From contig NC_092387.1 in NCBI RefSeq assembly GCF_030028105.1, forward strand, positions 52,585,590 to 52,649,589: a stretch of 64,000 bases of DNA, given 5' to 3'. Below the pieces are notes generated by a model. That model was not told where the DNA came from and ran no database searches. It was given only the letters and a program-made list of their open reading frames with translations. The DNA comes from Mobula birostris (Eukaryota). The position numbers and the translations under genes were made by a program. Each line of letters opens with the position of its first letter. Position 1 is the stretch's first letter. Below, one piece after another: positions 12,875 through 63,660 of the stretch.

Positions 12875-13380
12875 ATACACAGAATGCTGGAGGAACTCAG
12901 CAGGTCTGGCAACATCAATGGAAAGGTGCAAAGAGTTGACATTTTGGGCCAAGGCCCTTCATCAGTGCTGGAAAGGCAGGGGAAAGGAGCCAGAATCAGA
13001 AGGTACGGGGAGGGGAAGGAATACAAGCTGGAAGGTGATAAGGGAAGCCAGGCAATGTGGAAGGTAGGTGGGTGGGGGAGGGGCACGAAGTGAGTAGCTG
13101 GGTGGTGATAGGTGGAAAATGTAAAGGGTTGAAGAAGGTGGTCTCCAATAGGAGAAGAGAGTGGACCATGGGAGAAAGGCAGGAAGGAGGGGTGTTAGAG
13201 GGAGGTGTAAGACAAGTGAGGAGAAACGGTAAGAGAGGAGCCAGAATGGAAAAAAATAGAGAAGGGGGAGGGGGAGAAATTACCATGCTGCTAGATTGGA
13301 GGCTACCCAGACTGATTATGAAGCGTTGCTCTTTCGACCTGAGTTTGGCCTCATCGTGGCAGTGCTTGAAGGTTGACATG
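12875..13380 (-). mobile_element. PLE 3' end with degenerate hammerhead
   Basis: EAKLRSKEQRFIISLGSLQ (PLE ORF end) and agagttgacattttgggccaaggcccttcatcag. Confidence 0.75.
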
Positions 13381-14507
13381 AACTTGATGGCTCACTGTGC
13401 TGCAGAACTCTGTATGAGACAACTAGCAGTCTTTATTGCAACAATGAGGCCACTCTCAGGTTGGAGGAGCACCACCCCATGTTCCATCACCAACTCATCC
13501 ATCTCTCTTTGTTTGGCTCCAGCCTTCAGCTGTGAATGTGCGGGAATTTTCAAGCATGAAATTCAATTTGAAATTTCTCTGGATAACAGATTGAATCTGA
13601 TATTTTTCAATGTATCTGGTGATCAAATCTGCCAGAGTGAGCTGCTAAATAGAAGCGTTTGAACTGAAATATAATGTGTCAGCAAGAGCTACCAGGTGAA
13701 GCAACAGGTTGCAAAACCCCAAAGAAAGGCAAAAACATCAAACATCTGCAGAGGCTGTAAAACACAGGTGCGTGTGACAATAGCACCAGATGGAACAGAA
13801 ATGAACAAAATTAAACTCAGGAAATTGGCCAGATGTTCTGGTGAATAAGAAAATTTCAAAGGATTGCTTTATATTTAAAAATTACGCCTGAATTCAAAGC
13901 TCTGATCCTGGAAGATGGAACAGCTCACCTTACTTCTCAGAAGACCATGAATCTGCTGGTCCACACTAAATGGATTTCCAAAACTAATTTAGGTATGCAA
14001 GTTCCCATACCAGTCCTCCCAGGCAAACTCAGTACCATTGGGCAGCAGGTACAGGAGCCTTAGGTCCCACGTCACTGGTTTCAGGAACAGTTATTATCCT
14101 ACAAACATCAGGCTCCTGAACCATAAGACCATAAGTCAAAGGAGCAGAAGTCAGCCATTCGGCCCATCGAGCCTGCTCCGCCAGGCGTGGATAACTTCAC
14201 TCATCTAAACACTGAGCTGATTTCACAACCTACACACTCACTTTCAATAACTCCATAACTCATGTTCTCAGTATTATTTATTTACTTTATTTTTATATAG
14301 AATTTGCACGATTTACCCTCATTAGTTGTTTGTTAGTCTTTGTTATGCATAGCCTTTCATAAATTCTATTAAATCTTTATTTCCTGTAAATGTCTGCAAG
14401 AAAATGAATCTCGAGGTAATATTGGTGGCAGACATGTATCTGGATGATAAATTTACTTTGGATTTTGAAGAATCATCGACTCAGAGGAGTAAATAAGTCA
14501 GTAAAGA

Positions 14508-16020: not shown

Positions 16021-16891
16021 GTGGCGCATTGGTTCATTTATTTGATTAGTAGGCAGTGATCTGGAGCCTGAATGCAGGGATTTATGCTTGAATCTTTGCA
16101 GAGCACCTGGGAAGCTTAATTTCAAATAATGTAATATATGTTGTGATTAGTAAAGTAGCCATCTTTAGTATTGGGAGCTATGAACCAATATATAATCTTT
16201 CTGGTACACTGAAATCCTTCAAGAAAGAGATTTACCATCATTACCCAGTCTGCCCTATATATAGAACATAGAACATAGCATGATATTGTGCCAACCTATA
16301 GAAACATACTCCATCATCAATCTAACCTTTTACTCCAACACAGCCCATAACTCTCCATTTTTCTGCATGCATGTGCCTATCTAAGAGTCTTTTAAATGTC
16401 TGTATTATATCAGCTTCTCTCTGGCTATGCGTTCACTATTCTCTGTATAAAAACTACTTCTGACGTCCCCTCTAAACTTTCCCCCACTCATCTTCAAAGG
16501 ATGTCCTGTGGTATTGGCCATTGCACCCTGGGAAAAGACACAGGCTGTCCACTTAATCTATGACTTTCATAACTGTGTATACATCTCTATCAAATTGCTT
16601 CTCATCTTTCTTTGCTCCAAAGAGAAAAGGTCAATCAGACGTTCCTCATAGGACTTGTTCTTTAATCCAGGTGATCTCCCTGGGACATCCACATTGTTGA
16701 CCATTAACTGCTGCCTTAGTCTGAGGGCAATTGCAGATGGACAACAAATGCTGGTATTATCCATCATGTTCACACCCCACAAGCAAATGCACAAAAACGT
16801 CAGCTGTAGCTCAGAGATCAGCATACTCATATTTAGAAGCAGGAAATTCAAGTACCACTCTGCAAAACAGCTAAGCCAAACTGTTCAGTAC

Positions 16892-17270
16892 AGAGCAACA
16901 AACACAAAATGCTAAAAGAATTCAGCAAGTCGGGTAGCATCTCTACAGAGCAATGAACAGTCGATGTTTCAGGCTGAACCCCTTCATCAGGACTGGAAAG
17001 GAAGGGGGAGAAGGTAGAGGGAAGGGAAGGACTACAGGATGGCAAGTGACAGGTGAGACCTGGTGAGGGGTAAGGCAGGTGAGTGGGGCGGAAGCTGGGA
17101 GGTGTCAGGTGGAATAGGTAAAAGGCCGAAGGAGGAGTCCGATTGGAGGGGAAAGGGTGCCATGGAAGAAAGGGAAGGAGGAGGAGGGTACCAGAGGGAG
17201 GAAATGGACAGGTGAGGAGAAGAGAGCAGGGAAGAGAGGAGCCTGAATGGGGAATGGAAAGAGTGCAGTG
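16892..17270 (-). mobile_element. PLE terminal repeat with hammerhead (16958-16995)
   Basis: Minus strand cagtc-ctgatga-a-ggggttcagcct-gaaa-catc-gactg. Confidence 0.8.
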
Positions 17271-18400: not shown

Positions 18401-18879
18401 TGCACCTAACATCAGCACAGCAGGTAAACCTCCCACTAAGTTGGCAGAAAGGAAAAAGAAAAATTTCAAACGTAGAACAGCACAGAAATGGGTCCTTTGG
18501 CTCACAATAGTTATGCTGAACATGAGGCCAAATTAAACTAAACCTCTCCTGCATGCACATGATCCATATCTCTCCATTCTCTTCACATTCATGTCTCTAT
18601 CAAAAAGCCCTTAACTGCCTCTGTTGGATCTGCTTCCACCACTACCCCTGGCAACCCATTCCAGACACCCACTACACTCCTCGTCAAAACTTGCCTCACA
18701 CATCTCTCCAACTTTCCCCCTCTCATCTACATGCATGCACTCTGATATTTGCCTTTTTTTTTTAAATCTTGGGAAAATATTCTATCTCCCCTATCTGTGC
18801 CTCTCATAATTGTATAAACTTCTATCCAAGTCTCCCCACAGACTTTGACACTCCAGAGGAAACAACCCAAGTTTGTCCT

Positions 18880-19006
18880 AAACACAAGGAATTCAGCAGG
18901 AGCTGGAAATTTAGAGCAACACACACAAAATGGTGGAGGAGCTCAGCAGGTCAGGCAGCATCTACAGAAAGAGTCAACGTTTCAGGCTGAGACCCTTCAT
19001 CGGGAC
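18880..19006 (-). mobile_element. Short PLE hammerhead-plus-tail element adjoining a CR1 3' fragment (18470-18880)
   Basis: aacacaaggaattcagcaggagctgg...gagtcaacgtttcaggctgagacccttcatcgggact. Confidence 0.75.
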
Positions 19007-19289
19007 TTTACATCAACACTATAGATCCTGAAGTGAAGCTCAGATACACGTATATTCCCTTTTTTCTCTCTCTCTCTTTCCCCTCTCAGTTTGTCAGGTT
19101 CTATCACACACAGTATAACCAATCAACAGCAAACGTGTGTTGCATCTTCAATGTTATGAAATGCCCCAAAGGCATATTTGCAAAAGATACAGTCTTAGCA
19201 GAAAAGAATTAAGAGGAAGCAACCAAAGTCTTGGTTAATCTTACTTTTGATTAATCCTGGTTAAACTAAAAGCTTTGGGGAACACACAT

Positions 19290-24685: not shown

Positions 24686-26234
24686 CTATGGACTCAGTTG
24701 CAAAGACTCTAACTACTCACGCTCTCAATATTATTTATTTATTCTTATTATTTGTTTTATTTTGTATTTGCACCAGTTTGTTTTCTTTTGCACATTGGTT
24801 GTTTGCAGATTTTCATTAATTCTATTGTGTTTCTCCATTCTACAATGAATGCCAGCAAGAAAATGAATCTTGGGGTAGTATGTGATGATATTGACAGTGT
24901 GAACTTTGATTTTAAAAAACTTAACTTTGAGCTGACCATCCACACTCACGATTTCGGGAAGACACTCAGTCTCCCAACCCCAACTCCCACCCTCACTATC
25001 GCATAAATGCAGCAGTATACTTAGAGACATACCAAAAAGGAACAAAGTGAAACAACTGGCATTTACAATGGGGTAACCAAGTCTAACCAGTGGCTGGCGT
25101 CAGAGTTCAGAGTTCAATTCTCTGTAAGGAGTCTGTGCCATGTGACATGTGGGTTTCCTCTGGGTGCTCCAGCTTACTCCCACAATCCAAAATCGTACCT
25201 AATTAGTAGTTAATTGGTCATTGCCCATTTTCCTGTGATTAGGCTGGGATTAAATCAGTGAGTTGCTGGCAGCATGGCTCGAAGGGCCAGAAGGGCCAAA
25301 TCTGTGCTGTACCTCTAAATGAATGAATAATCTATAGTAGAAATGCTACTATGAGTGTTGACCAGGACAGAATTCTATTGGTCTTGATAAAGGATCTCGA
25401 CCCGGAACATTGACTGTATTTTCCCCTCCTGACTTGCTGATTTCCTCCAACATCTTATGTGCATGTTGTTCAAAATTTCTCCAGCATCTGCAGAATCTCT
25501 TCTGTTTAGAATTTTTTTTTTTTTTTTTTTTTATTAAGTGCAATCGTGAACAATAGCCAGATTAGAAGTGCTGATCAAGTCAACTAGCTCCCGAAGAGAA
25601 CTCTGATAGGCCAATTAGATGGTTCACTGCTGCTCAGCGATAGAACGCAAAACAGGCAAAAGTGTTGCTAGCCCCTGTACCCTAGAAACACACCTGAGTG
25701 GTGCGGCAGAGGTATGTGCTATGCATGACCTGATCTGAAAGCATCATGTTGACTCATAACAGATCGTGTTCACGGTGGAACAGCTTAGTCAAGGATGGGG
25801 TGATCAGCACAGATGGACAAATTATACCTCCACTACCCGTTAGTTCCACTGGTGTTATCTCCAGGGTCTCTCACCTTCACCCTTTGAACTTCACTTTGAG
25901 TTTTGAGAGCAGTCTGAAGGGATACACTTTGACAGAGGGGATAAAGAAGCGAAACAAGGAAGGAAATCAATGAAATACTGGAGCGGGTTGACAATGTAGC
26001 TAAACTTCAGCCACATAGACAATAACAGGCTCTTCCAGCCCAATGACCCCATGCCATCCAATTACACCCATGTGACCAACTAACCACATGTCTGGAATGT
26101 GGGAGGAAACCAGATCACCCAGAGGAAATCCACATGGGCACAGGGAGAATGTACATACTCCTTATAGACAGCAGCAAAACTAAACCCGGTTCACTGGCAA
26201 TTTAGTAGCTTATGCTAACCACTACTCTATAGTG

Positions 26235-32858: not shown

Positions 32859-33808
32859 TAGTTACTTAATTGTACAAAAACATGACTCCCACAAGTAGGA
32901 AGCTTAGCTCCACAGGGATGGTCTATAGAACTTAGGTCCTCATATTTCTCTCAACCCACCCCCCCTCCACCCTACATCCCTTCCCTCACCCTCCCACTTT
33001 CGATTGAGGCACAACGGACTGAAGAAGCAGGAAATCTGAAGCTGGAGTAACTCAGCAGGTCAGGCAACTTCAAAAAAAAAAAGATCAACAATCAGCACTT
33101 TGGGTCTCAACCAGAAGTGTCCACTGTTGATTTCCCTCCACGCATGCTGCCTGACCTGTTTAATTCCTTCACGTGTTGCACTAACTTAGATTCTTCATTC
33201 TCCTCTTATTTCTGTTCATCTTCAAACCCTCATCTCTTTTCTTATATCTCTCTCTCTTTCGGTCTACACCCGTGTCCGTCTCCCCACCTTCCATCTCTTT
33301 CTTGTAGGCAGACATGCCTTTGGATCCCGTACCCACTGAAAGCTCAGTAACTCAGACAACACCACATTCCTGCAGTACTGCATCTTACATATTCACTCCC
33401 TCCACCAATATGACTGCAAAGCACATCAGCCACTGCCTCTTCAACAGCACACCCCAGACCCGCAATAAGTCATACACTTGGGAATGCAACCCCCTCTGCA
33501 TTCCACTCTAGGCCTCAAAATGTCCTAATGTGCACATAATTTGGTCACAACCGTAGGTTCAGTACTCTTGATAGCGTAACTATGACTCCCTCACCGCACG
33601 GACGGCAAAGAACCAGGAAGGAAGCAAACTACCACCACCAGCATCACCTCTGCAATTAGAAATGTAAAACAAATGCTGGTCTAGCTAGAGATAACACTCA
33701 CAAATGTATAAATAAATGCGCCAGGATAGAAGATGTAGAATTGTAGATGTTAGATTGCGATGTAGTGTAGGAGTTTTTCTTGTAGTTTAGCTTTCCTATG
33801 GTCGCTTC

Positions 33809-33864
33809 AGGTGATTTACCTGAACAGTTGCAGGTAAATCACCTATTTACCTGCAACTGTTCAG
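33809..33864. repeat. Overlapping perfect inverted repeats
   Basis: 20-bp arms 33820-33839 / 33845-33864; 14-bp arms 33809-33822 / 33831-33844. Confidence 0.9.
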
Positions 33865-34637
33865 TGGATTTTCTAGCAATCATGGTACAGTTGCTTCCGT
33901 ATTTTTCTAGAAACTTCCTAGTTTTCAGTAGCAAGTATCATGCCATTTGAATCTGGCTATTTTATTGGTTAATTGTTATCAATGAAATCTTGTTATCTCC
34001 CGTTTGAGTATGAGAAGACCATAACTATTTTTTTTAACATCAGTGCTTCATTAAGGGTCTCAGCCTGAAACATCGACTGTTTATTCCTCTCCATAGAAGC
34101 TGCCTGACCTGCTGAGTTCCTCCAGCATTTTGCTTGTAGTGCAGAAACTGTTTTTTTTCTATACTATGACTTGGTACTTGGTGCATCACAGGAGCCAGAC
34201 AGGACACAGTAAGATGGGAAAGAATCCGGATGTTTTGCAAAGTTATTTCGTGGTGCTGGCTGAGAGGAATTTAAGCAAGGTATTAAAAAAGCTTTTGCTG
34301 GGAAGAATGCCATAACAGCTAACTGACACAACAGACAGGCACTTCACTATGCCATTGGCAATAGGCATTGCCAACTGTACACCACTGACTCAGTACTGCC
34401 CTTGGTATGTCAGACTGGGTAACGTGCTCTGCTCTCAGCATGAACTCAACCTTTCTCCACTGAGGCAAGTGGGAAGCCACATCTACCCAGAATGCCTCTG
34501 GAGATGCCCACGCACCCATCACCCACTTTTTGACTCAGTACACACTCCCTGAGAAACTAAATTTATTCCCACTTCTGAACAGAAATATCTCCTGTGAAAA
34601 AACCCACTTCCTTGTTTTTAAAGCAGGCGTTACTTAC

Positions 34638-35940: not shown

Positions 35941-36339
35941 TGCTATAGCGTCATAGAGTCACTGAGCATAGAAACAAGCCCTTCGGTCCAACTCGGCAAT
36001 GTTGTAGGCCAGGCGTCTAGTTCAAGTTTATTGTCATTTGACTGTACATTAAAGGCATCCATTAGTCTTGCAAGACCATGGATCTGCGTCTGGAAAGTCT
36101 TCACTCTCCAGGGCACAGGCCTGGGCAAGGTTGTATGAAAAACCAGCAGTTGCCCATGCTGCAAGTCTCCCCTCTCCATGACACCAATGTTGTCCAAGGG
36201 AAGGGCATTAGGACCCATATAGCTTGGCAACAGTGTCATCGCAGAGCAATGTGTGATTAAGTGCCTTGCACAAGGACACAACACGTTGCCTTCAGGTCGC
36301 TAGTCCAATGCCTTAACCACTTGGCCATGTGCCCACTGA

Positions 36340-42303: not shown

Positions 42304-42689
42304 TAATGCAAAATACTGCTGCTGCAAGGCCACAAATTTCATGGCATATGCCAATGATATTAAACCTGATTCTAATTCTGATACTGATACTTTAGATTCA
42401 TCTGCAAGATTACTAACCATGCCTCGTATATTCTCATCCAAATAGGTGGCAAATAATTATGACCCCTGAGGCACACCACTGGTCACAGTCCTCCAGTCCC
42501 AATTTAGAGTGAAACTAAACTGTTGGAAGAACTTATCAGGTCAAATAGTATTTGTATAGGCGAAGGGGAGATGGACATTTTGGATCAAGACCCTGCTTAC
42601 TTTGGATCTTGTGGGACCATTTGCCTGCAGACAAACACAGGTGGGAAAGATGAATTGTAGAGGCAAAGCAAGAGTGGTGTGCTTGTAAT

Positions 42690-45669: not shown

Positions 45670-48080
45670 ATGAACATAAGATACAGAAGCAAGAAGAGGC
45701 CATTTGGCCCATCGAGTCTGCTCCGCTACTTTGTCATGGCTGATCCATTTCCCTCTCAGCCCCAGTCTCTTGCCTTCTCCCTCTATCTCTTCATGCCCTG
45801 ACTAATCAAGAATCTATCAACCTTGGTCTTAAATATACCCAATGACTTGGCCTCCACAGCTGCCTGTAGCAAAGAATTCCACAGATTCACCACTCTGGCC
45901 GGATTAATTCCTCCCCATCTCCATCCTACGTGGACTTCCCTCTATTATGAGGATGTGTCCTTGGGTCTTAGACCCCCCTGCTATTGGAAACATCCTCTCC
46001 ACATCCACTCTATCAAGGCCTTTCAACATTCAATATGTTTCAATAAGATTCCTCCCCCCCTTCCTATGAATTCCAGTGAGCACAGGCCCAGAACCATCAA
46101 ATGCTCCTCATATGATAAGCCTTTCAATCCGGGAATCTTTTCATGGACATCCTTTGAACCTTCTCTAATGTCAACACTTACTTTCTTAGATAAGGAACCC
46201 TAAATTGCTCACAATACTCCAAGCGAGGCCTCACCAGTTCCTTAAAAAGCCTCAGCATTACAACCTTGCTTTTATATTCTAGTCCTCTCAAAATAAATGC
46301 TAATATTTAATTTACCTTCCTCACCACCGACTCAAATCTGCAAATTAACCTTTAGGGAATCCTGCACAAGGACTTCCAAGTCCCTTTGCACATCAGATTC
46401 TTGAATTTTCACTCCATCTAGAAAATAGTCTATACTTTTGTTCCTATTACCTAAGTGCATGATCCGATACTGTTTTCAATATGCCACTTCTTTGCTCATT
46501 TTCCTAATCTGTCTAAGTCTTCCTGTACCCTCTCTGCTTCCTCAGCACAAACTGCCCCTTCACCTATATTAATATCATCCACAAACTTGGCTACAAAGCC
46601 ATCAATTCCATCATCCAAATCATTACCATATAACGTAAAAAGAAGTGCTCCCAAAGCAGAAGTTGTGGAACACTAATCACCAGCAGCCAACCAGAAATGG
46701 CTCCCTTTATTGCCACTCCTCGCCTCCTGCCAATCAGCCAATGCTCTATCCATGATAGTATCTTTACTGTAATAGCATGGGCTCTTACGTTGTTATGCAG
46801 CCTCATGTGTATCATCTTATCAAAGGCCTTCTGAAAATCCAAGTATACACCATCAACTGATTCTCGCTTGTCTATCCTACATGCTGTTTCTTCAAAGAAT
46901 TCCAACGTATTTGTCAGGTTAGATTTTCCCTTTAGGAAACCATGCAGACTTTGCCCTCCAGTACCCCGAAACCACATTCTTAACAATCAACTCTAACATC
47001 TTCCTAAGCACTAAGGTCAGACTAACTGGCCTTAAGTTTCCTTTCTTCTTCCTCTCTCCTTTCTTGAAGAGTGGAATGACATTTGCAATTTTCCATTCCT
47101 CTGGAACCATGCCAGGATCCATTGATTCTTGAAAGAACATTACTAAAGCCTCCACAATCTCATCTGCCACCTCTTTCAGAACCCTGAGGTCTGGACCATC
47201 TGGTCCAGGTGACTTATCTACCTTCAGACTTTTCAGTTTCCCAAGCAACCTCTCCTTAGTAATGGCAACTTAACTCACTTCTGCCCTGACACTCTCGAAC
47301 TTCCTGCATACTGCTAGCATCTTCCACAGTGAAGACTAATGCAATATACTTATTCAGTTCATCCGCCATTTCCTTGCCCTTCATTACTACCTCTCCAGCA
47401 TTATTTTCCAGTACTCTGATACCTGTATCTACTCTCACCTCTCTTTTATACCTCACATGTCTGAAGAAACTTTCAGTATTCTCTTTAATATTTTTGGCTA
47501 GCTTACCTTTATATTCTATCTTTTCCTTTTTATGACCTTTTAGTTGCCTTCTGTTGTTTTTTAAAAGCTTCCCACTAATTTTTGTTTCGTTTTTATGTTG
47601 GCTTTGACTTCTCTTGTTGGCCACGGTTGCATCATCCTGCCTTTAGAATTCTTCTTCTCCTTTGCGGTTTATCTATCCTGCATCTTCCAAATTGCTTCGA
47701 GAAGCTCCAGCCATTGATATTCTGCCGTCATCCCTGCTAGTGTTCCTTTTCAATCAATTTTGGCCAGTTCCTCTCTCGTGCTTCTGTAATTCTGTTTACT
47801 CCACTTTAATACTGATACAGCTGGCTTTTCCTTCTTAAATTGCAGGGTGAATTTGATCATATTATGATCAATTACCGCTAAAAATTCCTTCACCTTAAGC
47901 TCTCTCATCATTTCTGGTTCATTGCACAACACCCAACCCAGAATAACTGATTCCCCAGTGGGTTCAACCATGAGCTGCTCTAAAAAGCTATCTCATAGGA
48001 AATGTAAAAATTCCCTCTCTTGGGATCCAGCACCAACCTGATTTTTCCAATCTACCTGCATATTGAAATCCCCTATGACT
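45670..48080 (-). mobile_element. CR1 LINE ORF2 (end of EN, RT, 3' UTR), degenerate
   Basis: LKVDKSPGPDG..RVLKEVA...WKIANVIPLFKKG...RPVSLT; HGFLKGKSNLTNTLEFFE...VYLDFQKAFDK. Confidence 0.92.
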
Positions 48081-48845
48081 ATATACAGTACTGTTGTTGC
48101 TATGTTACTTTATCAATACTCCATCTAAATTTAGATTTTGCAAACCAGACTTGCAACTCTGTAGCCTTTCTCAGAAGATTTCCAGATCATCTGCAGCTAT
48201 TATTTCAGGACAAGAAACAACTATTTTGTGTGCACAGTAACAAACAAAGAATGCTGAAAGAACTCAGAAGGTCAGGCAGCATCCATGGAAAGGAATAAAG
48301 AGTTGACCTTTTGTGTACATAACTCTGAATTTCCAGCACCTGCAGAACCTGTTGTGCGTCTACTTTGTGTGCACGGAAAGCTCCCACAAACAGCAATACG
48401 ACCATATCCAAATAATCAGATATGTAGATAGGGATTGAAGGATAAATATTGGCCCCAGAACACTGGAGAATAATGCCTGCTCTTCTAAAATTCATGCTGT
48501 GGCATCCTCTATATCAGCTTCTACGGCCTCAGCTTAAAACCAGTCTCCTCTAAATTGACTCCATCTACATTTCCCGCTGCCTCAGGAAAGCAGCCAACAT
48601 AACTAAGGACCCCTCCGATTCTGGTCATTCTCTCTTCTCCCCCCTTCCATCGGGCAGAAGATACAAAGGATTGAGGGCACGTATCACCAAACTTGGGGCT
48701 AGTTTCTACCCGACTGTTATCAGACACTTGATCAAATCACTGATACATTAAAGATAAAATTCCTGATCTTCCAATCTACATTTTTGTGGCCTTTGCACTT
48801 TATTTGCTTACCTGTACTGGACAGTTTGTTGTAGCTGCTACTTCA

Positions 48846-49706
48846 CACTCAGTGCCCATTTTGTTAACTACCTCCTGTACCTAATAAAGTGGCCACTGAG
48901 TGAAAGTTCATGGTTTTCTGCTGCTGCAGCCTATTCACTTCAAGGTTTGATATGTTGTGCATTCAGCAATGCTCTTCTGCACAAAACTGTTGTAACACGT
49001 GGTTATTTGAGTTACGGTTGTCTTTCCATCAGCTTGAACCAGCCTGGCCATTTTCCTCTGACGTCTCTCATTAGTAAGGCACGTCCATCCACAGAACTGC
49101 CACTTGCTGGATGTCTTTATTTGGGTTTTCTCACCATTCTCTGTAAACTCTAGAGACTGTTATGTGTGAAAACCCTAGGAGATGAACAGCTTCTGAGATA
49201 CTCAAACCACCCCTTCTGGCACCAACAATCATTCCATGGTCAAAGTCACTCTGATCACATTTCTTCCCCATTCTCATATTTGGTATGAAAAACAACTGAA
49301 TCTTCTGACCATGCCTGCATGTTTTTATGCATTGAGTTATTTAATTATTCATTTTGAGATACAATGCAGAACAGGCCCTTCTGGCCCAGTGCAAAGCAAC
49401 CCACCTATTTAACCCTAGCCTAATCACAGGGCAATTTACAATGACTAATTAACTACCTAACCAGCAATGTGGGAGGAAACCAGAGCACCTGGAAGAAACC
49501 CATGCGTTCACGGGGTGGACGTACAAGATCCTTATAGATGGTGTTGGAGTTGAACTCTGAACTCCGATGCCCCAAGCTGTAATAGCACGGTGCTAACCAC
49601 AGCTCTACCATGATGCCCCAAAGAATGTTGCAGCCACATGATTTGCTAATTAGATATTTGCATTAACAAGGTGTAAAAGCGCACCTAATAAAGTGGGCAT
49701 TGAGTG
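48846..49706 (-). mobile_element. Deleted Tc1 element with nested V-SINE (49340-49620)
   Basis: TIRs cactcagtgccca / aataaagtgggcattgagtg; internal third TIR at 48882-48902. Confidence 0.85.
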
Positions 49707-50615
49707 ATTATTCAGCATTCCCTTTTCTTTTATTACCTCGGTGTATTTATATGTGGTACAATTTGATATGGTAGGCTCATAGCACAGAAGTTAGCACAAC
49801 TGATTTACACACCAACAATCACTGATTGGGGTTTGATTTATACCAGTGTCTAGAAGAAGTTTGTATGTTTTCCCCATGACTGTGTGGGTTTCCTCTGGGT
49901 GCTCGGGTTTCCTCCCTTATTCCAAAGGCATATAGGTTAGGGTTAGTAAATTGTAGGCATGCTACTAGAAGCATGGTGACACTTGTGGTCTGTACCCAGC
50001 ATAATCCTCGCCGATTTGATTTGACGCAACAGATGCACTCCATTGTTTGAATGTACAGGTGACAAATAAAGTGTATCTTTTCTCTTTGATCTGACTGGAT
50101 GGCACTGAAAAAAAAAAGCTTTTCAATGTATCTCAGTAACCATATAACCATATAACAATTACAGCACGGAAACAGGCCATCTCGGCCTTTCTAGTCTGTA
50201 CCGAACGCTTACTCTCACCTAGTCCCATCTACCTGCACTCAGCCCATAACCCTCAATTCCTTTCCTGTCCATATACCTATCCAATTTTTTTTTTAAATAA
50301 CAAAATTGAACCTGCCTCAACCACTTCTACTGGAAGCTCATGCCACACAGCTACCACTCTCTGAGTAAAGATGTTCCCCCTCGTGTTACCCCTAAACTTT
50401 TGCCCCTTAACTCTCAACTCATGTCCTCTTGTTTGACTCTCCCCTACTCTCAATGGAAAAAGCCTATCCACATCAACTCTATCTATCCCCCTCATAATTT
50501 TAAATATTTCTATCAAGTCCCCCCTCAACCTTCTATGCTCCAAAGAATAAAGACCTAACTTGTTCAGCCTTTCTCTGTAACTTAGGTGCTGAAACCCAGA
50601 TAACATTCTAGTAAA

Positions 50616-52336
50616 CATAAGGAATTCTGCAGATGCTGGAAATTCAAGCAACACACATCAAAGTTGCTGGTGAACGCAGCAGGCTGGGCAGCATCTCTAG
50701 GAAGGGGTACAGTCGATGTTTCAGGCTGAGACCCTTCGCCAGGACTAACTGAAGGAAGAGCTAGTAAGAGATTTGAAAGTGGGAGGGGGAGGGGGAGATT
50801 CAAAATGATAGAAGACAGGAGGGGGAGGGATGGAGCCAAGAGCTGGGCAGGTGATTGGCAAAAGGGATATGAGAGGATCATGGGACAGGAGGTCCGGGAA
50901 GAAGGAAAAGGGGGAGGGGGGGAAAACACAGAGGATGGGCACCCCCCCTTTCTAGACCATTTCTGACACCTCCCTCCCCTTTCTAGACCATTTCTGACAC
51001 CTCCCTCCCCTTTCTAGATCTTTCTGTCTCTATCTCTGGAGACAGCTTATCTACTGATATCTACTATAAGCCTACTGACTCTCACAGCTATCTGGACTAT
51101 TCCTCTTCTCACCTGTCTCTTGCAAAAACGCCATCCCCTACTGACAATTTCTCCGTCTCCGCCGCATCTGTTCTCAGGATGAGGCTTTTCATTCTAGGAC
51201 GAGGGAGGTGCCTTCCTTTTTTAAAGAAAGGGGCTTCCCTTCCTCCACCATCAACTCTGCTCTCAAACGCATCTCCCCCATTTCACACACATCTGCTCTC
51301 ACTCCATCCTCCCGTCACCCCACTAGGAATAGGGTTCCCCTGGTCCTCACCTACCACTCCACCAGCCTGCGGGTCCAACATATTATTCTCCGTAACTTCC
51401 GCCACCTCCAACGGGATCCCACCACTAAGCATATCTTTCCCTCCCCACTTCCCTTTGCTTTCCGCAGGGATCGCTCCCTATGCGACTCCCTTGTCCATTC
51501 GTCCCCCCCATCCCTCCCCACTGATCTCCCTCCTGGCACTTATCCTTGTAAGCGGAACAAGTGCTACAGATGCCCTTACACTTCCTCCCTTACCACCATT
51601 CAGGGCCCCAGACAGTCCTTCCAGGTGAGGCGACACTGCACCTGTGAGTCGGCTGGTGTGATATACTGTGTCCAGTGCTTCCGATGTGTCCTTCTATATA
51701 TTGGCGAGACCCGACACAGACTGGAAGATCGTTTTGCTGAACACCTATGCTCTGTCCGCCAGAGAAAGTAGGATCTCCTAGTGGCCACACATTTTATTTC
51801 CACATCCCATTCCCATTCTGACATGTCTATCCACGGCCTCCTCTACTGTAAAAATGAAGCCACTCTCAGGTTGGAGGAACACCTTATATTCTGTCTGGGT
51901 AGCCTCCAACCTGAAGGCATGAACATTGACTTCTCTAACTTCCGCTAATGTCCCACCTCCCCCTCGTACCCCATCCGTAATTTATACACACATTCTTTCT
52001 CTCACTCTCCTTTTTCTCCCTCTGTCCCTCTGACTATACCCCTTGCCCATCCTCAGGGTTCCCCCCCGCCTTTTCCTTCTCCTTGGGCCTCCCGTCCAAC
52101 GATCCTCTCATATCCCTTTTGCCAATCACCTGTCCAGCTCTTGGCTCCATCTCTCCCCCTCCTGTCTTCTCCTATCATTTTGGATCTCCCCCTCCCCCTC
52201 CCACTTTCAAATCTCTTACTAGCTCTTCCTTCAGTTAATCCTGACGAAGGGTCTCGGCCTGAAATGTCGACTGTACCTCTTCCTAGAGATGCTGCCTGGC
52301 CTGCTGCGTTCACCAGCAATTTTGATGTGTGTTGCT
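50616..52336 (+). mobile_element. 5'-truncated Penelope-like element (Neptune-type) with inverted terminal repeat
   Basis: 15-bp TSD taacattctagtaaa (50601-50615 / 52337-52351); inverted repeat 50616-50940 vs 52020-52336; ORF remnant between. Confidence 0.92.
51005..51948 (+). pseudogene. PLE ORF remnant: RT C-terminus, Cys-rich linker, GIY-YIG endonuclease
   Basis: PFLDL..YYKPTDSHSYLDY; CKRNKCYRC; VIYCVQC..C..LYIGET..RL..RF.EH; LQPEGMN; carries stops and frameshifts. Confidence 0.9.
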
Positions 52337-53989
52337 TAACATTCTAGTAAATTTCCTCTGTACTCTCTCTATTTTGTTGACATCTTTCCTATAATTCGGT
52401 GACCAGAACTGTACACAATACTCCAAATTTGGCCTCACCAATGCCTTGTACAATTTTAATATTACATCCCAACTCCTATACTCAATGCTCTGATTTATAA
52501 AGGCCAGCATACCAAAAGCTTTCTTCACCACCCTATCCACATGAGATTCCACCTTCAGGGAACTATGCACCATTATTCCTAGATCCCTCTGTTCTACTGC
52601 ATTCTTCAATGCCCTACCGTTTACCATGTATGTCCTATTTTGATTAGTCCTACCAAAATGTAGCACCTCACACTTATCAGCAAGTGAAAAAAAATAAACC
52701 AGTATCAATCTCACCCAGAAAAAGAGTCCTTCTGATAGTGCAGCCCTCCCTCAAGTCTTGAGTGGGATGTGGTCACATAGCCTTCAAATTCAGAAACAAA
52801 AGTACTCCCTGCTTAGCCACAACTGACACAGAAACACAAGTCACAAGTCCTTTTCAATATCTTTCTGTTTTTGGAAGTGGAGGAAGACAACTTACCAATT
52901 AGCTGTCACCATTTGGAAATATTACACAAAAGCTCAAAGTTGACCTAATGTAGACTTGACCCTACCCAGAGCAGACTTAATGAGCCGAAAGGCCTAATTC
53001 TTCCCCGATGTCTTATGGACCCAAATATGTGGACGCTAACCCTCAATTTATGTCACTCGAGTCACTGACAAAGAGGATGGTTCTCCTGCCTAGTTTCTCC
53101 TGTTCGCTAACCCACATTTCCTGCCATTGCCTGTATGTTCTCCCCACGCCCACGTGGGTTTCCTCCGGGTACTCCAGTTTCCTCCTACAGTCCAGAGAAG
53201 TACCAGCGGTAGGTTAATTAGTCATTGTAAATTTCCCATGACTAGGCCACAGTTAAATCAGGAGTTGCTGGTTGACGCAGCTAGTCCACACTCCACCTCA
53301 ATAGATAAATAAACAATACATCCATTCAGGAATAATGCTTCAGTAAATACCTGTTACTTGAAATAAGGAAATATTAATGTACTTGAGGTTTGCAAATCTT
53401 TGGAAATCCCCACCCCATGAATAACCTACCCCTCCTCCCACATCCATTCCCACCCCTATTTATTCAACAAAATCAATGCAATTATATTTGAGCCAAATGA
53501 ACAAGGTGAAGTGTTCACATCAGAGCCATAAGTTGCCATGGTAACTGAAATAATAGAACTACTCCGTTTCCAATCAGAAGTAACTGATCCCTTGATCACA
53601 ATACATTGGGCTGCACAGAAACTGGGTGAACAATGGGGGCAGTGTTCATAACTACTCCTTATTGCCAGGAGAGAAAGTTCAATGGTGATTGAAGAATTGA
53701 ATTACTGATATGGGCTTCCCATCAGATCAGTGATTTAGAGTGCATTGAAATAATTTAATGAAATTAAAGGAAGTTTACTGGAACTGAGGCAATGGAGAAT
53801 CAGGTCAGGTAACTGACAGCTACAGGCAAAAGGTTCCTGGAAGCACAAAAATTCAGACAGCAACTGCAGGGGGAGAAAGACAGATAATGTTTCAGTTTAA
53901 CACACGAGATGATGGAAGAACTCTGTGGGTCAGGCAGTATCTATGGAGCGAAATTGCAGGCCGAGTCGGTGGTAAGGAAGGTAAATTAC

Positions 53990-55384: not shown

Positions 55385-55792
55385 CTTTGCTATTGCTCAT
55401 TCTGGTTCCCCTCACATCCCTTCTCTTCATCTCATCTGCCCAACACCTCCCCCTGGCCCCCCCTCCTCCTTCCCTTTCTCCCATGATCCACTCTACTCTC
55501 CTATCAGATTCTTTCTTCTTCAGCCCTTTACCTTTTTCCACCTGTCACTTGTCAGCTTCTTACTTCACACCCCTTCCCCATCCACCCACCTTCTCCTCCA
55601 CAAGGTTTCACGTATCACCTGCCAGCCTGTATTCCTTCCCCTCCCCTACTTTCTTATACTGGTTTCTTCCCCCTTCCTTTCCAGTCTGAAAGAAGGGACT
55701 CAGCCTGAAACATCGATTGTTTATTCCTCTCCAGAGATGATGCCTGACCACCATCTATGGAGTTCCTGCACCATTTTGTATGTGTTGCTCTC
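55385..55792 (+). mobile_element. PLE terminal repeat with degenerate hammerhead
   Basis: CT-rich repeat then ccagtctgaaagaagggactcagcctgaaacatcgattg. Confidence 0.7.
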
Positions 55793-57004
55793 GATTCTTT
55801 GCATGTTTACCCGTAGTTTTCCAAAATGTTATTTCTTTCCTGATACTTCCTTTTAACAGGTACTTCATCTTTTTGTGCCTAGTTTATGACTGAGGGACAT
55901 CATGAAACAGCATACCTTGCTTCCCATCCCTCTACACGTGGGAATCAATTGAGTTATTTACAGATTCAGTCACAGAACATGCCTGACAAAGCCACTCTTT
56001 ACTCTAATTCTGGATGGGTCCTGAAATGAGCGGGTAGTTGAGAGCCAACAGATTTTGTTGACCTGGTGTCTAACAGGGGCTAAATTCTATTGTATGTCTT
56101 TATATTTACTGAGTATGCCTGCAAGAAAATGAAACTCAGAGTAGTTTATGGTGATATATATGTTCTTTGATAATAAATTTACTTTAAACTTTGAAAATAA
56201 TTGGGCAGGTTCAGCAGATTTCCTGCCAGAAAGACATGAATAAACCAACAGTTTTATTTAAAAAATAGTTCCCAACACTTGGTTATTTTTCCCAATTTGT
56301 TTATTGACAAATTTAAACCTTCAGTCATAATGGGATATGAATTTATTAATGCAGACTAATATTCCTGGCGAACTACTCTAGAAGATATGGCGGCAGAGTG
56401 TCAGATGGGTTGTGTTATTGGACTAATAATTCTAGTTCTATTGATTCATCTGTTTAAATCTCACCCCATTAAGTATAATTTTTAATTCATTAAATCAATC
56501 TGAAATTAAAGAATGCTTATGAAATTACATAATCATTATCAATTTCCTTGAGCTTGCTAAAGAAGTTATCATAATTAGCTGGCCTGTTGCAGAGCATTGT
56601 GGTGCATCTTCAGAAATAACTTTAGCATTGTGACCATAAAGCTACCAGATTGCCATAGAAACATGCCCTGAGAAGGATCCTGCAACCCTTACCAGTCCGG
56701 GTATGTGATTCCAGACCCTCCAATGTGGCTGACTCTTAACAGCCTGCTGAAATTATGTGGCAAGTAACTCAATCAAAAGGGCCATTAGGGATAGGGAATA
56801 AATGTTAGTATTTACCAGCAACACCACAGCCACGAATATATCAGCAAATGGAGACGTACCCTAAGAAACCTCATCCAATTTATCAGCACATTCCACACAG
56901 ACACATTTCTCCTGGACTGCAGTCCTAAATTCTATCATACTTCATTTGATTACAGCCCAACTTTTTGCACTACTTATGCATATAAATAGAAAACCACAAA
57001 AGTA

Positions 57005-57061
57005 CACCCATTGGCCACTTTATTAGGTGCAGGAGGTACCGAATAAAGTGGCCATTGAGTG
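57005..57061. mobile_element. 57-bp Tc1-derived micro-MITE
   Basis: cacccattggccactttatt...aataaagtggccattgagtg, preceded by TA. Confidence 0.75.
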
Positions 57062-57199
57062 TCTATTTCTCATTGCAATTTATTGTCTATTTAATGCATT
57101 GCACTGTACTGCTGCCATGAAACATCAAATTTCATTACATATTCCAGTGATAATAAACCTGATTCTAATTCTGATTCCAATTCACTCACCAGGATCAAA

Positions 57200-57622: not shown

Positions 57623-57803
57623 CATTTTCAACATTCTACTGGATCTGAGTCTATTATTCTCATTTTATTATGTTACATTGCTAATGTATTTCCCATTGGT
57701 AAATAAAACACTGTGAGTTATTTTTCTTTAAGAATTCTAGTTTACAGTTGTTAGTATTCCAGGGATCTGTTTTGTGGCAAGAAAGAAATATGACTACGTT
57801 TAT

Positions 57804-58704
57804 AAAAGTTGCTGGTGAACGCAGCAGGACAGGCAGCATCTCTTAGAAGAGGTGCAGTCGACGCTTCGGGCCGAGAGCCTTCGTCGGGACTAACTGAAAG
57901 AAGAGCTAGTCAGAGATTTGAAAGTGTGAGGGGGAGGGGGAGATCCAAAATGATAGGAGAAGACAGGAGGGGGAGGGATGGAGCCAAGAGCTGGACAGGT
58001 GATTGGCAAAAGGGATGTGAGAAGATCATGGGACGGGAGGCCTAGGGAGAAAGAAAGGGGGGAGAGCCCAGAGGATGGGCAATAACGGATGGGGTACGAG
58101 GGGGAGGTGGGGCATTAATGGAAGTTAGAGAAGTCAATGTTCATGCCATCACGTTGGAGGCTACCCAGACGGAATATAAGGTGTTGTTCCTCCAACCTGA
58201 GTGTGGCTTCATCTTTACAATAGAGGAGGCCGTGGATAGACATATCAGAATAGGAATGGGACGTGGAATTAAAATGTGTGGCCACTGGGAGATCCTGCTT
58301 TCTCTGGCGGACAGAGCGTTGACTTCTCTAACTTCCATTAATGCCCAACTCCCCCTCATACCCCATCCGTTATTGCCCATCCTCTGGGCTTCCCCCCTCT
58401 CCCTTTCTTTCTCCCTAGGCCTCCCGTCCCATGATCCTCTCATATCCCTTTTGCCAATCACCTGTCCAGCTCTTGGCTTCATCCCTCCCCCTCCTGTCTT
58501 CTCCTATCATTTTGGATCTCCCCCTCCCCCTCACACTTTCAAATCTCTTACTAGCTCTTCTTTCAGTTAGTCCTGACGAAGGGTCTCGGCCCGAAACGTC
58601 GACTGTACCTCTTCCTAGAGATGCTGCCTGGCCTGCTGCGTTCACCAGCAACTTTTACATGTGTTGCTTGAAATTCCAGCATCTGCAGATTTCCTCGTGT
58701 TGGC
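57804..58704. mobile_element. Fold-back (inverted) PLE insertion
   Basis: Arms ~57805-58140 and 58320-58655 are reverse complements; TSD atgacta(c/t)gtttat 57790-57803 / 58705-58718. Confidence 0.9.
58569..58604 (+). ncRNA. Minimal type I hammerhead ribozyme (intact core)
   Basis: Stem I agtc/gact; CUGACGA plus extra A; stem II gggt-ctcg-gccc; GAAA; palindromic ACGU in place of stem III; GUC cleavage triplet at 58598-58600. Confidence 0.8.
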
Positions 58705-61202
58705 ATGACTATGTTTATTATTGTCCTCAGCAGTACAACTCATCACAAATGTAAGTACTAAAACAATTGAACTTCACACTCATCATGTAATAAACTTGAT
58801 CAAATCCTGCTCCTCTAAGGTGAAGACTTGTTCTGGCCATCTTATTTTCAACTTTGAACTTTGAACCTTAACCTACCTGCCTCAACCTAAGAATTAATCT
58901 TCTCTGTTTCTGTGTTGCACAAGGTAAAAATAATTTACTTAAGTAATTAATGATGCAATGTCCCACTCAACAGAATGTTCGAACACATTCAGTTTTACTT
59001 GGGCTTTTTTTGCATGTCATTTGAGAATAACAACTTCACATTGAAGTTAACTATGTCCAAGTTAAGTTGAACCAGTCTCTGTGAGTGCATGATACAAGAT
59101 AGTCCCTCCTGTAACCTATTGCCAGGCAGTCATTTACAGTGAAATTAAAAAGAAACAGAATGCAAAAAATACTCACCAGATCAAGTAGCATCTATGGAGG
59201 CAGAAGATCAATGAAGTTCATTAAAGCTGATCAAAGCTAGGAGACAAAAGAGGTCCTAATCAAGGGTAATTGCAGAAAGGCGGAAAGAACAGGTCTGCAT
59301 TCAGTTGGAAGACAAGAGAATAAAGGGAAAGAGGTAACAGCACAAAACGAGGAGGTGAGAGGACGAGTTAAGGAAATAAATGTTGAACCTAAGGAAGGGC
59401 AAATCGTGTGAGAATTACTATCAGCATCCACTGCGTAATACTGAAACCATACATTCTCATAACAGGAAATGCATCAGGGTGTCACCCTGCAATTTAAAGG
59501 AACGTTTTACATATAAACAATAGAAGGAGGTGCAGAAGCCTCAGGACACACATCACCAGGTCTGGAACAGTTATTACCTCTCAACCTTCAGCCTTCTGGA
59601 CCAGAGGGGATAACTTCACTCAATACTGAACTGCTTCCTCATCCTATGGACTCACTTTCAAGGACTCTTCATCTCACGTTCTCGATACGTATTGCTTATT
59701 TATTTATTATGTTCATTTTGTTCTCTTTTTCTATTTGCACAGTTTTGTTTGTCCATAAGGTTGTGTGTGTTTTTTTTTCATTGCTTCCTTTGTGTTTCTT
59801 TGTATTTACTGAGAGTACCTGCAAGAAAATGAATCTCAGTGTGATATATAGTATACTTTGAACTTTGAGGGTGCAGATAAGCCCACAGTGTCAGTCCTAA
59901 TCTACCTGATTCCACAACCCATGGACTTACTTTCAAGAACACTGCAACTCATATTCTCAGTTATTTATTTATTATTATTGTTATTGTTGTTTTTTGTATT
60001 TGCATAGTTTTGTCTTTTTTTGCACATTGGGTGTTTGTGTGTCTTTGTGGTGTGTGCTTACATTGATTCTAATGTATTTCTTTGTTCTACTGTGAATGTC
60101 CATAAGAAAATGAATCTCAGGGTGGCATATGGTGACATACAGTATGTACTTTAATTATAACTTTATTTTGATCTTTGAAAACATTTTCTAAAGTGCCAAA
60201 CACCACAAATATAGCTTTTGCCCAGATTAAGTGTTCAGATCCTATATAGACTATTTTGTTGATTGCTTGTGATCTGCACCTTTGTATCCAGTGGTTTCTA
60301 GCTCTCACCTGTAAATAAACTGAAGAGATCAACAGATTGCTGGAGGAACTCAGCAGGTCAGGCTGCACATCTGGAAGCAGAGGAGTGGTTGATGTTTTGG
60401 GTCAAGATACTGCATCAGGCCATGTTTACTTGCCCCGGATCCCAGCATCTGCAGTCTTTTGGATCTCCATGGGAATGCAATAATTCTATTACGAGGCAAT
60501 TATTTAATAATTTAAAAAACACCTGAGATTGCAGATGCTGGGATCTAGAACTACAAATAGTCTGCTGGAGGAACTCAGCGAGTCAGGCAGCATTTGCCTG
60601 AAGGACTGTTCGAGCGTGTGGGTTGGTGGAAGGGAGGAAAGCAGCTTCTTTTGCTGTTGTTGGTTTGTTGCTTATTGTATTCTATATTATTGTTGTTCTG
60701 CTGAGTATTGAGGGCATGCTATGTTGGGCGCCAGAGTGTGTGCTGACACTTACGGGCTGGCCCCAACACATCCTGTTGGTTGTTAATGCAAATAACGCAT
60801 TTCCTTGTAGGCCTCAATGGATGTGTGATAAATAAATGTGAATTTGAGACTGTGTGGGTAAAGCAATTGTCGATGTTGTGGCTCAAAACCCTACGTCAGG
60901 CTCTGAAACATCAACAGTTCCTTTCCCCCTACAAATGCTGCTTGACTTGCTGTGTTCTTCCTGTAGAGAATATAATTGTAACATTTGATAGCTAAAACCC
61001 AGAACATTTTTGATAACCTCCTACATCCTTTCCCCTATGAGCCAATGTCAGGGATTCAATGCATGAATCCAAAATATTTTAATACATTTGGGTGAGGGAA
61101 TGGGTATAAAATGCCATAGTTTAAATACATTCATTATCAAAGTATGTGCGCAGCATACGATCCTGAGGCTTGCCTTCCCCACAGACAGCCATGAAACAGG
61201 CC

Positions 61203-62465: not shown

Positions 62466-62551
62466 CACAACACACTGGAGGAACTCAGCAGGTCGGGCAG
62501 CATCCGTGGAAATGATCAGTCAACGTTTTGGGCTGGAACCCTTCGTCAGGA
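62466..62551 (-). mobile_element. 86-bp hammerhead-plus-tail insertion
   Basis: 17-bp TSD cccatttaaactacact (62449-62465 / 62552-62568); minus strand (g)tcctgacgaagggttccagcccaaaacgttgactg. Confidence 0.85.
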
Positions 62552-63415: not shown

Positions 63416-63660
63416 CAAACAACAGAAATTCTGCAGATGCTGGAAATTCAAGCAACACATATCAAAGTTGCTGGTGAACACAGCAGGCCAGGCAGCATCT
63501 CTAGGAAGAGGTGCAGTCGATGTTTCAGGCCGAGACCCTTCGTCAGGACTCTTCCTTCAGTTAGTCCTGACGAAGGGTCTCGGCCTGAAACGTCAACTGC
63601 ACCTCTTCCTAGAGATGCTGCCTGGCCTGCTGCGTTCACCAGCAACTTTGATGTGTGTTG
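63416..63660. mobile_element. Palindromic PLE mini-element with two hammerheads on opposite strands
   Basis: 15-bp TSD cttcaacttttgact (63401-63415 / 63661-63675); 101-bp arms 63450-63550 / 63563-63663. Confidence 0.9.

What the first reader, a model, noticed from the sequence alone, without database searches (positions are those of the whole stretch)
58569..58604. Intact minimal hammerhead ribozyme, and a ~20-copy ribozyme-bearing repeat family across the window
Seen: AGUC-CUGACGA-A-GGGU(CUCG)GCCC-GAAA-CGUC^GACU has all conserved hammerhead core nucleotides, stem I, stem II, an extra A after A9, and a palindromic ACGU where stem III should be. Variously decayed copies lie near 893, 1610, 4246, 4796, 6753, 10250, 12934, 16958, 18972, 25380, 33095, 34042, 42575, 50710, 52237, 55682, 57855, 60385, 60870, 62517, 63515 and 63563, about one per 3 kb. 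Most decay is CpG deamination (ACGT to ACAT, CGAAA to TGAAA/CAAAA). Known: Penelope-like elements carry minimal type I hammerheads with palindromic stem III that cleave as dimers. Inference: this genome may hold a very large hammerhead complement, most of it in short non-autonomous SINE- or retrozyme-like copies.
Basis: partly seen in the sequence, partly recalled or inferred. Interest (0 to 1): 0.75.

Follow-up and report, generated by a model that had tools for sequence, protein, structure and literature searches.

The report
Penelope retroelement hammerheads in a ray
The 36-base motif is a complete minimal hammerhead-ribozyme sequence at the end of a dead copy of a Penelope-like jumping gene, in what is likely a ray genome; this link has been published since 2014, and the only less ordinary point is that many short copies start right at the ribozyme's first base.

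Summary
58569-58604 has every minimal type I hammerhead feature, and all 22 listed copies are real (37 family hits at E<=0.05; none in the reversed control). Only this copy is intact among the 20 that span the motif. The family is the terminal repeat (pLTR) of an endonuclease-positive Penelope-like element (PLE), probably Neptune type; its best protein hit is Mobula hypostoma (90%). Evidence: RT and GIY-YIG remnants upstream, inverted 5'-joined pairs, 13-17 bp target-site duplications, and a ~35-nt tail on one end. It is not a retrozyme, because there are no head-to-tail tandems. No tRNA or other Pol III RNA was found at the heads of the copies. Short copies group with long ones. CpG deamination explains 44% of substitutions, not most. 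Covariation does not exceed shuffles. A read-through transcript would bury this hammerhead in a duplex with its inverted partner, so this copy is probably inert. One notable pattern: 9 of 10 5' ends between -190 and 0 fall within 9 nt at the start of stem I. The scan has already noted this motif and this pattern on other shark and ray DNA. Verdict: new member of a known kind.

The parts
58569..58604 (+). Intact minimal type I hammerhead motif; predicted cut after 58600
58314..58704 (+). 5'-truncated PLE arm: 3' UTR/pLTR, hammerhead and ~35-nt tail
57804..58318 (-). Inverted PLE arm: GIY-YIG C-terminus (58121-58318), 3' UTR, damaged hammerhead 57856-57891 (U4, A15.1 and one stem II pair changed), no tail
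57790..57803 (.). Left target-site duplication (14 bp, 1 mismatch)
58705..58718 (.). Right target-site duplication
50987..51948 (+). Broken PLE ORF remnant: RT C-terminus/thumb, CX4CxxC linker, GIY-YIG endonuclease (frameshifts and one stop)
51949..52336 (+). 3' UTR/pLTR of that element with damaged hammerhead 52237-52272, no tail
50616..50941 (-). Inverted pLTR arm with damaged hammerhead 50711-50746 and tail; whole insertion bounded by 15-bp TSD (50601-50615 / 52337-52351)
63416..63660 (.). Short inverted pair of the young subfamily (hammerheads 63515-63550 minus, 63563-63598 plus), 15-bp TSD
62466..62551 (-). Solo short copy starting at stem I, perfect 17-bp TSD
48236..48359 (-). Short copy plus inverted tail, 15-bp TSD (1 mismatch)
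34036..34145 (+). Short copy starting near stem I, 13-bp T-rich TSD (1 mismatch)
12860..13490 (-). Old long copy with endonuclease remnant (13275-13364 region) and inverted fragment at 13431-13487
10182..10695 (-). Old long copy reaching the ORF end by DNA similarity
4570..4907 (+). Old long copy with 3' UTR
16886..17246 (-). Old long copy with 3' UTR
55390..55797 (+). Old long copy with 3' UTR
886..982 (+). Short copy starting at about -6
4246..4380 (+). Short copy starting at -4, with tail
18870..19007 (-). Short copy starting at -4, with tail
25380..25510 (+). Short decayed copy starting at about -3, with tail
60331..60421 (-). Short decayed copy starting at about -3, with an inverted tail upstream
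60867..60961 (.). Short inverted pair joined inside the hammerhead
6698..6865 (.). Short inverted pair
33041..33180 (.). Short inverted pair joined inside the hammerhead
1548..1712 (.). Short plus copy with inverted partner and tail upstream
42512..42594 (-). Strongly decayed short copy

Best explanation
The motif is a minimal type I hammerhead sequence in the terminal repeat (pLTR) of an endonuclease-positive Penelope-like retrotransposon, likely of the Neptune type, and the other copies are likely dead insertions made by that element's reverse transcriptase and GIY-YIG endonuclease. Shown: the motif, its position about 290 nt after the ORF stop (52241 against 51948), inverted 5'-joined pairs, TSDs, two classes of 3' end, and a bimodal 5'-end distribution. 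Inferred from the Anolis Poseidon work (PMC11167929): the protein nicks target DNA and starts reverse transcription at two internal sites downstream of the hammerhead, about +83 to +98 and +126 to +131 from C3 here, which gives the tail. Because copies run across the cut site, the template was uncleaved or re-ligated RNA. Inferred: in an active tandem element two motifs would cleave as a dimer through the ACGU palindrome, probably weakly or with protein help. Inferred: the 58569 copy is intact because it is young, and it is probably inert, since read-through RNA would pair it with its inverted partner.
For: The ORF remnant upstream of the 52241 copy matches 48 proteins, the best 90% identical (Mobula hypostoma model). 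Relatives carry RVT_1 and GIY-YIG domains and a conserved CX4CxxC linker. tblastn places endonuclease remnants upstream of hammerheads at 57887, 52241 and 12965. The arms 57803-58059 and 58401-58657 are 96% complementary. Clear TSDs were found at 6 of 22 candidate insertions, with chance P=0.008 per zone pair at score >=10. In 3 of 3 TSD-bounded pairs the tail is on one end only, as described for PLEs (PMC8557442; PMC3846280). All features that Cervera 2014 lists for min-HHRs other than covariation are present. The same paper says most motifs are single and probably truncated PLEs, and that some occur as pairs 100-700 bp apart on opposite strands. The MFE fold of 57800-58720 pairs the hammerhead with 57856-57891. 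Contigs from four public runs cover all 30 of 30 bins of the element, ORF included; 101,065 contigs were laid in run X19.
Against: No full-length element or direct pLTR-ORF-pLTR tandem is in the window. The window's own ORF pieces gave no RT or GIY-YIG Pfam hit (0 of 2); the domains come from relatives, several below the curated cut-offs. 16 of 22 candidate insertions show no convincing TSD; one further 14-bp match at 10173/10765 was set aside as likely belonging to another repeat. There is no covariation support. Nearest-neighbour energies do not favour the active fold: the dimer hammerhead scores -14.7 against a co-fold MFE of -32.1 kcal/mol, and the monomer prefers a rod that pairs the core with CGUC. 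The Neptune assignment rests on the linker motif, not on a tree. The sharp 5' edge at stem I is not what random truncation predicts.
Confidence: 0.9

Rival explanations
1. Sub-mechanism A for the short copies: the element's RNA begins at the first base of stem I (A58569-equivalent, in a YYANWYY initiator-like context). Reverse transcription primed in the 5' pLTR copy runs to the RNA's 5' end and inserts a 100-135 nt 'strong-stop' unit.
For: 9 of 10 5' ends in -190..0 lie in -8..0 (binomial P about 2e-10 after correcting for 21 windows), and this bin is denser than +1..+50 (P=0.0015). Short copies lack the pyrimidine-rich 3' UTR (pyrimidine fraction 0.34-0.62 for the nine edge copies against 0.78-0.81 for long copies). 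They share no upstream sequence beyond chance, except the two inverted-junction copies. A TSD abuts the edge at 62549. PLE promoters lie in the pLTR (PMC2377424), and internal RT initiation is shown (PMC11167929).
Against: No transcript-end data were available; contigs cannot show RNA ends. An initiator match is cheap in pyrimidine-rich DNA and was judged by eye. In D. virilis Penelope the start site lies upstream of an intron that ends at helix I, which is a different geometry. The 5' ends were read by hand from alignments, and 7 weak hits of 37 were dropped.
Confidence: 0.4
2. Sub-mechanism B for the short copies: the rod hairpin that spans exactly -4 to +31 stalls RT, or lets the new cDNA snap back once it is copied, so ordinary truncation piles up at and inside the hammerhead.
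For: The monomer MFE is a rod closed by stem I, -11.9 kcal/mol, with its 5' base at -4. Seven further ends lie at +1..+20, and several inversion junctions fall inside the motif. Self-priming has been proposed for PLE inversions (PMC3846280).
Against: RT stalls are usually expected at the 3' foot of a hairpin (general knowledge). The near-absence of ends between -9 and -190 (1 of 30) needs a very strong stop, yet 9 of 30 copies read far past it.
Confidence: 0.35
3. The short copies are an independent non-autonomous SINE-like family with its own master genes, mobilised in trans by the PLE.
For: Shared 5' edge, roughly uniform length of 100-135 nt, and high density. Non-autonomous PLE derivatives are described (bioRxiv 10.64898/2026.07.22.740005).
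Against: Short copies occur in both young and old subfamilies. Young short copies are 92-93% identical to young long ones and nest among them. No tRNA or other Pol III RNA was found at their heads. The deeper nodes of the tree are poorly supported (86-nt region).
Confidence: 0.15
4. The repeats are non-LTR retrozymes that replicate through circular RNA from head-to-tail tandems.
For: Non-LTR retrozymes are reported in one chondrichthyan and are related to pLTRs. Copies spanning the cut site are compatible with a circular template.
Against: No tandem array with period above 31 bp. Paired copies are inverted, which cannot give a cis dimer. Copy ends are fixed downstream of the motif and are not permuted.
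Confidence: 0.04
5. The 58569 copy has been kept intact by selection as a host ribozyme.
For: It is the only intact copy of 20.
Against: It belongs to the youngest subfamily (93% mean identity to its peers), so intactness is expected by age. It has no sense partner and is predicted to be sequestered in a duplex.
Confidence: 0.02

Closest known systems
Minimal hammerheads (min-HHR) in pLTRs of metazoan Penelope-like elements (Cervera and De la Pena 2014, PMC4209133)
   Same: Type I, no helix III, palindromic 15.2-16.2, extra nucleotide after A9, G10.1-C11.1, short helix I, located in the pLTR, mostly single dispersed copies, some opposite-strand pairs. Reported in fish Neptune/Poseidon/Xena elements, coelacanth (~4,000) and Xenopus (~9,000).
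   Different: The host is probably a ray; no shark or ray term was found in the supplement file searched (one file could not be searched). Helix II is 4 bp against 7-8 bp in Schistosoma. Density appears far higher here, extrapolating from one window.
Neptune-clade EN+ PLEs (as summarised in Craig et al. 2021, PMC8557442)
   Same: RT, CX2-5CxxC linker and C-terminal GIY-YIG; 5' truncation; inverted 5'-truncated partner; 30-40 bp tail on one end.
   Different: Clade not tested by phylogeny. The sharp 5' edge at stem I was not seen in the passages read.
Poseidon of Anolis carolinensis, PAc (Frangieh et al. 2024, PMC11167929)
   Same: Hammerhead upstream of two 3' ends separated by a tail; inserted copies span the cut site, fitting unprocessed RNA as template.
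   Different: PAc is Poseidon clade and its ORF starts in stem II; that was not determined here. Its hammerhead was shown to need protein; untested here.
Non-LTR retrozymes (bioRxiv 10.64898/2026.07.22.740005; PMC7229834, search listing only)
   Same: Type I hammerhead; related to pLTRs; non-coding short units.
   Different: Defined by head-to-tail tandems with a hammerhead in each unit, which are absent here.

Membership tests
PLE minimal hammerhead (min-HHR) | Conserved core CUGANGA, GAAA, UH with helices I and II | tested here: met
PLE minimal hammerhead (min-HHR) | Unpaired nucleotide between 9 and 10.1; G10.1-C11.1 pair | tested here: met
   A58580; G58581-C58592; A in 20 of 20 copies; feature list
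PLE minimal hammerhead (min-HHR) | No helix III; palindromic 15.2-16.2 | tested here: met
   ACGU at 58596-58599
PLE minimal hammerhead (min-HHR) | Located in a PLE pLTR | tested here: met
PLE minimal hammerhead (min-HHR) | Compensatory covariation across families | tested here: inconclusive
   Not above shuffles on 20 decayed paralogues; neutrally decaying copies are not expected to show it
PLE minimal hammerhead (min-HHR) | Self-cleavage as a dimer | not testable with these tools
   The dimer fold can be drawn without pseudoknots but is not the MFE
EN+ Penelope-like element | Single ORF with RT and C-terminal GIY-YIG endonuclease | tested here: met
   Through homologues; window fragment alone had no Pfam hit
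EN+ Penelope-like element | Inverted 5'-truncated partner, tail on one end, TSD | tested here: met
EN+ Penelope-like element | Direct partial tandem (pLTR-ORF-pLTR) in full-length copies | not testable with these tools
   No full-length copy in the window; no genome held
Neptune clade | CX2-5CxxC linker between RT and EN | tested here: met
   CX4CxxC in the window ORF and most aligned relatives; definition. The motif is shared with Nematis.
Neptune clade | RT phylogenetic placement | not tested
   No labelled reference set available
Non-LTR retrozyme | Head-to-tail tandem units each with a hammerhead | tested here: not met
Non-LTR retrozyme | Circular RNA expression | not testable with these tools
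   Only contigs available
SINE | Head derived from a Pol III RNA (tRNA, 5S, 7SL) | tested here: not met
   No ARAGORN gene; the single weak Rfam tRNA hit (36273-36334) is not at any copy
SINE | Shared discrete 5' end | tested here: met
SINE | Own lineage separate from the autonomous partner | tested here: inconclusive
   Young short copies nest with long ones; old nodes are unresolved

The most novel reading that the evidence does not exclude
In elasmobranch Neptune-type PLEs the transcript starts at the hammerhead's first base, and internal priming in the 5' pLTR pours out 100-135 nt 'strong-stop' insertions. These SINE-like, ribozyme-headed units may number near a million per genome, and their junctions record the RNA's 5' end and both RT start sites.
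Probability: 0.35. Interest if true: 0.5.

Novelty: new member of a known kind. Interest (0 to 1): 0.22.

Why it matters
The kind of element and its ribozyme are known, so the motif itself changes little. Its value is practical. First, rays may hold a much larger set of PLE hammerheads than the thousands reported for coelacanth and Xenopus; my nine paper searches found no description in cartilaginous fish beyond one species in a retrozyme survey. Second, what PLE hammerheads do in transposition is still open. A hard 5' edge at stem I rather than at the cut site argues that inserted cDNAs come from uncleaved RNA, and it gives a cheap genomic read-out to test where PLE transcripts begin.

Tried and rejected
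No whole genome is held, so no genome-wide count was made. Rfam: no hammerhead family; the miRNA hits are inverted repeats far below gathering score. ARAGORN: 0 genes. A metagenome pattern scan for the motif found 0 matches. Pfam on 8 window ORFs: no RT or GIY-YIG hit. Sequencing runs: no RNA holder listed as such; 24 runs hold part of the element. In one search contigs show no molecule ends. Loose ends pile up before 52239 in all four runs, but this copy has a private change at 52238 and old subfamilies diverge upstream, so I do not count it as support for the 5' edge; contig depth was not used as copy number. Splice-acceptor reading of the edge (pyrimidine tract plus AG just before the core, as in D. 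virilis): rejected because short copies share no upstream exon and several keep the AG. Cleavage-site origin of short copies: rejected because few ends lie near +28 (4 of 30 in +21..+50). Covariation test negative. Sequence look-up in earlier findings: nothing. Paper searches found no paper on shark or ray PLE hammerheads. Two elasmobranch genome preprints do not mention Penelope or ribozymes in the main text; their supplements could not be seen and may list PLE content.

Full report
Observation. The motif at 58569-58604 is as described: a 4-bp stem I, CUGACGA, one unpaired A, a 4-bp stem II with loop CUCG, GAAA, palindromic ACGU in place of stem III, and a predicted cut after C58600. A structure descriptor independent of that profile matched 3 sites, against 0.0 per simulated window in 100 simulations. 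Of the 20 copies that span the motif, only 58569 keeps the core, the palindrome and all eight pairs. CpG deamination accounts for 52 of 118 substitutions. Covariation is not above shuffles, as expected for neutrally decaying paralogues. Rfam returned no hammerhead family.

What the repeat is. The flagged motif lies in one arm of an inverted pair: 57803-58059 and 58401-58657 are 96% complementary, with further matching blocks up to the junction near 58314-58318. The pair is bounded by a 14-bp TSD, and the minus arm holds the C-terminus of an endonuclease. A sister insertion at 50616-52336, inside what looks like a CR1-type LINE (my reading of the flanking ORFs, not confirmed by Pfam), has a perfect 15-bp TSD. 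It carries a broken ORF (50987-51948) followed by the same 3' UTR and hammerhead. That ORF matches 48 proteins; the best are gene models from Mobula hypostoma (90%), Hypanus sabinus (69-81%), whale shark (64%) and zebra shark (58%), so the host is likely a myliobatiform ray. Relatives carry RVT_1 and GIY-YIG domains, and the alignment shows a CX4CxxC linker, which Craig et al. associate with Neptune and Nematis PLEs. The window fragments alone had no Pfam hit. One zebra shark model reads through into its 3' UTR and ends in a peptide matching the translation of the window hammerhead at 8 of 11 residues, which is compatible with the same motif in sharks.

Anatomy of the copies. Clear TSDs of 13-17 bp were found for 6 of 22 candidate insertions. 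TSD-defined 3' ends fall in two classes, +83..+98 and +126..+131 from C3, and in 3 of 3 TSD-bounded pairs the longer 'tail' is on one end only. Many short copies have an inverted partner or an inverted tail at their 5' end. These are the published hallmarks of PLE insertions (PMC8557442 and PMC3846280, passages). No tandem array of the unit exists, so the retrozyme definition is not met (bioRxiv 10.64898/2026.07.22.740005, parts 1-3 of 5 read). Young short copies are 92-93% identical to young long copies and nest among them with support 0.999; older nodes are unresolved. Contigs of four public runs cover all 30 of 30 bins of the element (101,065 laid in X19), so the family, ORF included, is very abundant; depth was not used as copy number.

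The 5' edge. I scored 30 of 37 hits, dropping 7 weak ones (20615, 22955, 53913, 53977, 54647, 54933, 59241) and reading ends by hand. Nine ends lie beyond -190, 1 in -190..-9, 9 in -8..0, 7 in +1..+20 and 4 in +21..+50. The excess at -8..0 is significant against upstream (P about 2e-10) and against downstream positions (P=0.0015). It is unlikely to be an alignment artefact: these copies lack the pyrimidine-rich UTR, share no upstream sequence, and one has its TSD directly at the edge. Two mechanisms fit. The RNA may start at the first base of stem I, with internal priming in the 5' pLTR. Alternatively, the rod hairpin spanning -4..+31 may stop RT or release the cDNA. I cannot separate them. 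I noted the pattern before seeing that two earlier scan reports describe it in shark DNA; those are unchecked AI notes, not independent proof.

Mechanism. Shown: motif, context, TSDs, tails, inversions and end distribution. From the literature: min-HHRs are inactive as monomers and weakly active as dimers (PMC4209133, parts 1-2 of 4 read). In the Anolis Poseidon element RT starts at two internal sites that define the tail, the hammerhead cleaves only with protein, and cleavage is not needed for insertion (PMC11167929, parts 1-2 of 4). The Penelope promoter is in the pLTR (PMC2377424, passages). Inferred: the same cycle applies here, with uncleaved or re-ligated RNA as template because copies span the cut site. 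For this locus, the partner is antisense and damaged, so no cis dimer is possible. A read-through RNA is predicted to pair the whole motif with 57856-57891. The isolated motif folds into a rod that locks the core, and the dimer hammerhead is not the minimum-energy co-fold. The copy is therefore probably inert unless transcribed from within the pLTR and paired in trans.

Comparison and novelty. Membership among PLE min-HHRs is met on every structural and contextual feature tested; covariation is inconclusive and cleavage is untested. Cervera 2014 already reports such motifs in fish Neptune elements, mostly as single copies, with some opposite-strand pairs. Nine searches found no paper on shark or ray PLE hammerheads; the 2026 preprint reports retrozymes in one chondrichthyan. 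The review PMC6155905 was seen as passages. Lunse et al. 2017 on dimer cleavage is recalled and named in a scan note; I did not read it. Supplements of the preprints and one Cervera file could not be seen. The scan reported the same motif in five other shark or ray windows.

Verdict. Real, correctly identified, and a new member of a known kind. Interest 0.22. The most novel reading, a transcript that starts at the ribozyme and yields strong-stop insertions, has probability about 0.35. With 37 hits in 64 kb and batoid genomes of 2.2-4.0 Gb, a naive extrapolation gives about a million remnants and tens of thousands of intact motifs, but this rests on one window and one intact copy.

Noticed in passing
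window 33808-33878, 57000-57068, 48840-48907: Short near-perfect inverted repeats that Rfam matches weakly to miRNA families, far below gathering score; probably MITE-like DNA transposon remnants.
   Followed up: no
window 36273-36334 (-): Weak tRNA-like match (27.7 bits, E=0.14); possibly the head of a tRNA-derived SINE, unrelated to the hammerhead family.
   Followed up: no
window 50277-50657 and 52310-52750 (-): Two ORF pieces that look like one CR1-type LINE split by the PLE insertion; family label is from recall, with no Pfam hit. Similar LINE-like ORF fragments occur at 1081-1557, 29638-30098, 37453-37818 and 46591-47642.
   Followed up: partly
window 50945-51026: A 31-bp unit repeated 2.7 times exactly at the junction between the inverted arm and the ORF remnant, suggesting repeated template re-annealing during insertion.
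   Followed up: no
window 58573-58600 and other copies: With C or U at N7, the core bases can pair with the CGUC before the cut site, giving an inactive rod; A at N7 removes this. It could act as an off state.
   Followed up: partly
P0008 C-terminus; P0004, P0005: Public shark and ray gene models include this retroelement ORF, two of them under host gene names; one reads through the hammerhead.
   Followed up: partly
window 4080-4250, 9880-9940, 10150-10240, 10750-10780: Another dispersed repeat family flanks or hosts several hammerhead copies; it gave the 14-bp match at 10173/10765 that I did not count as a TSD.
   Followed up: no
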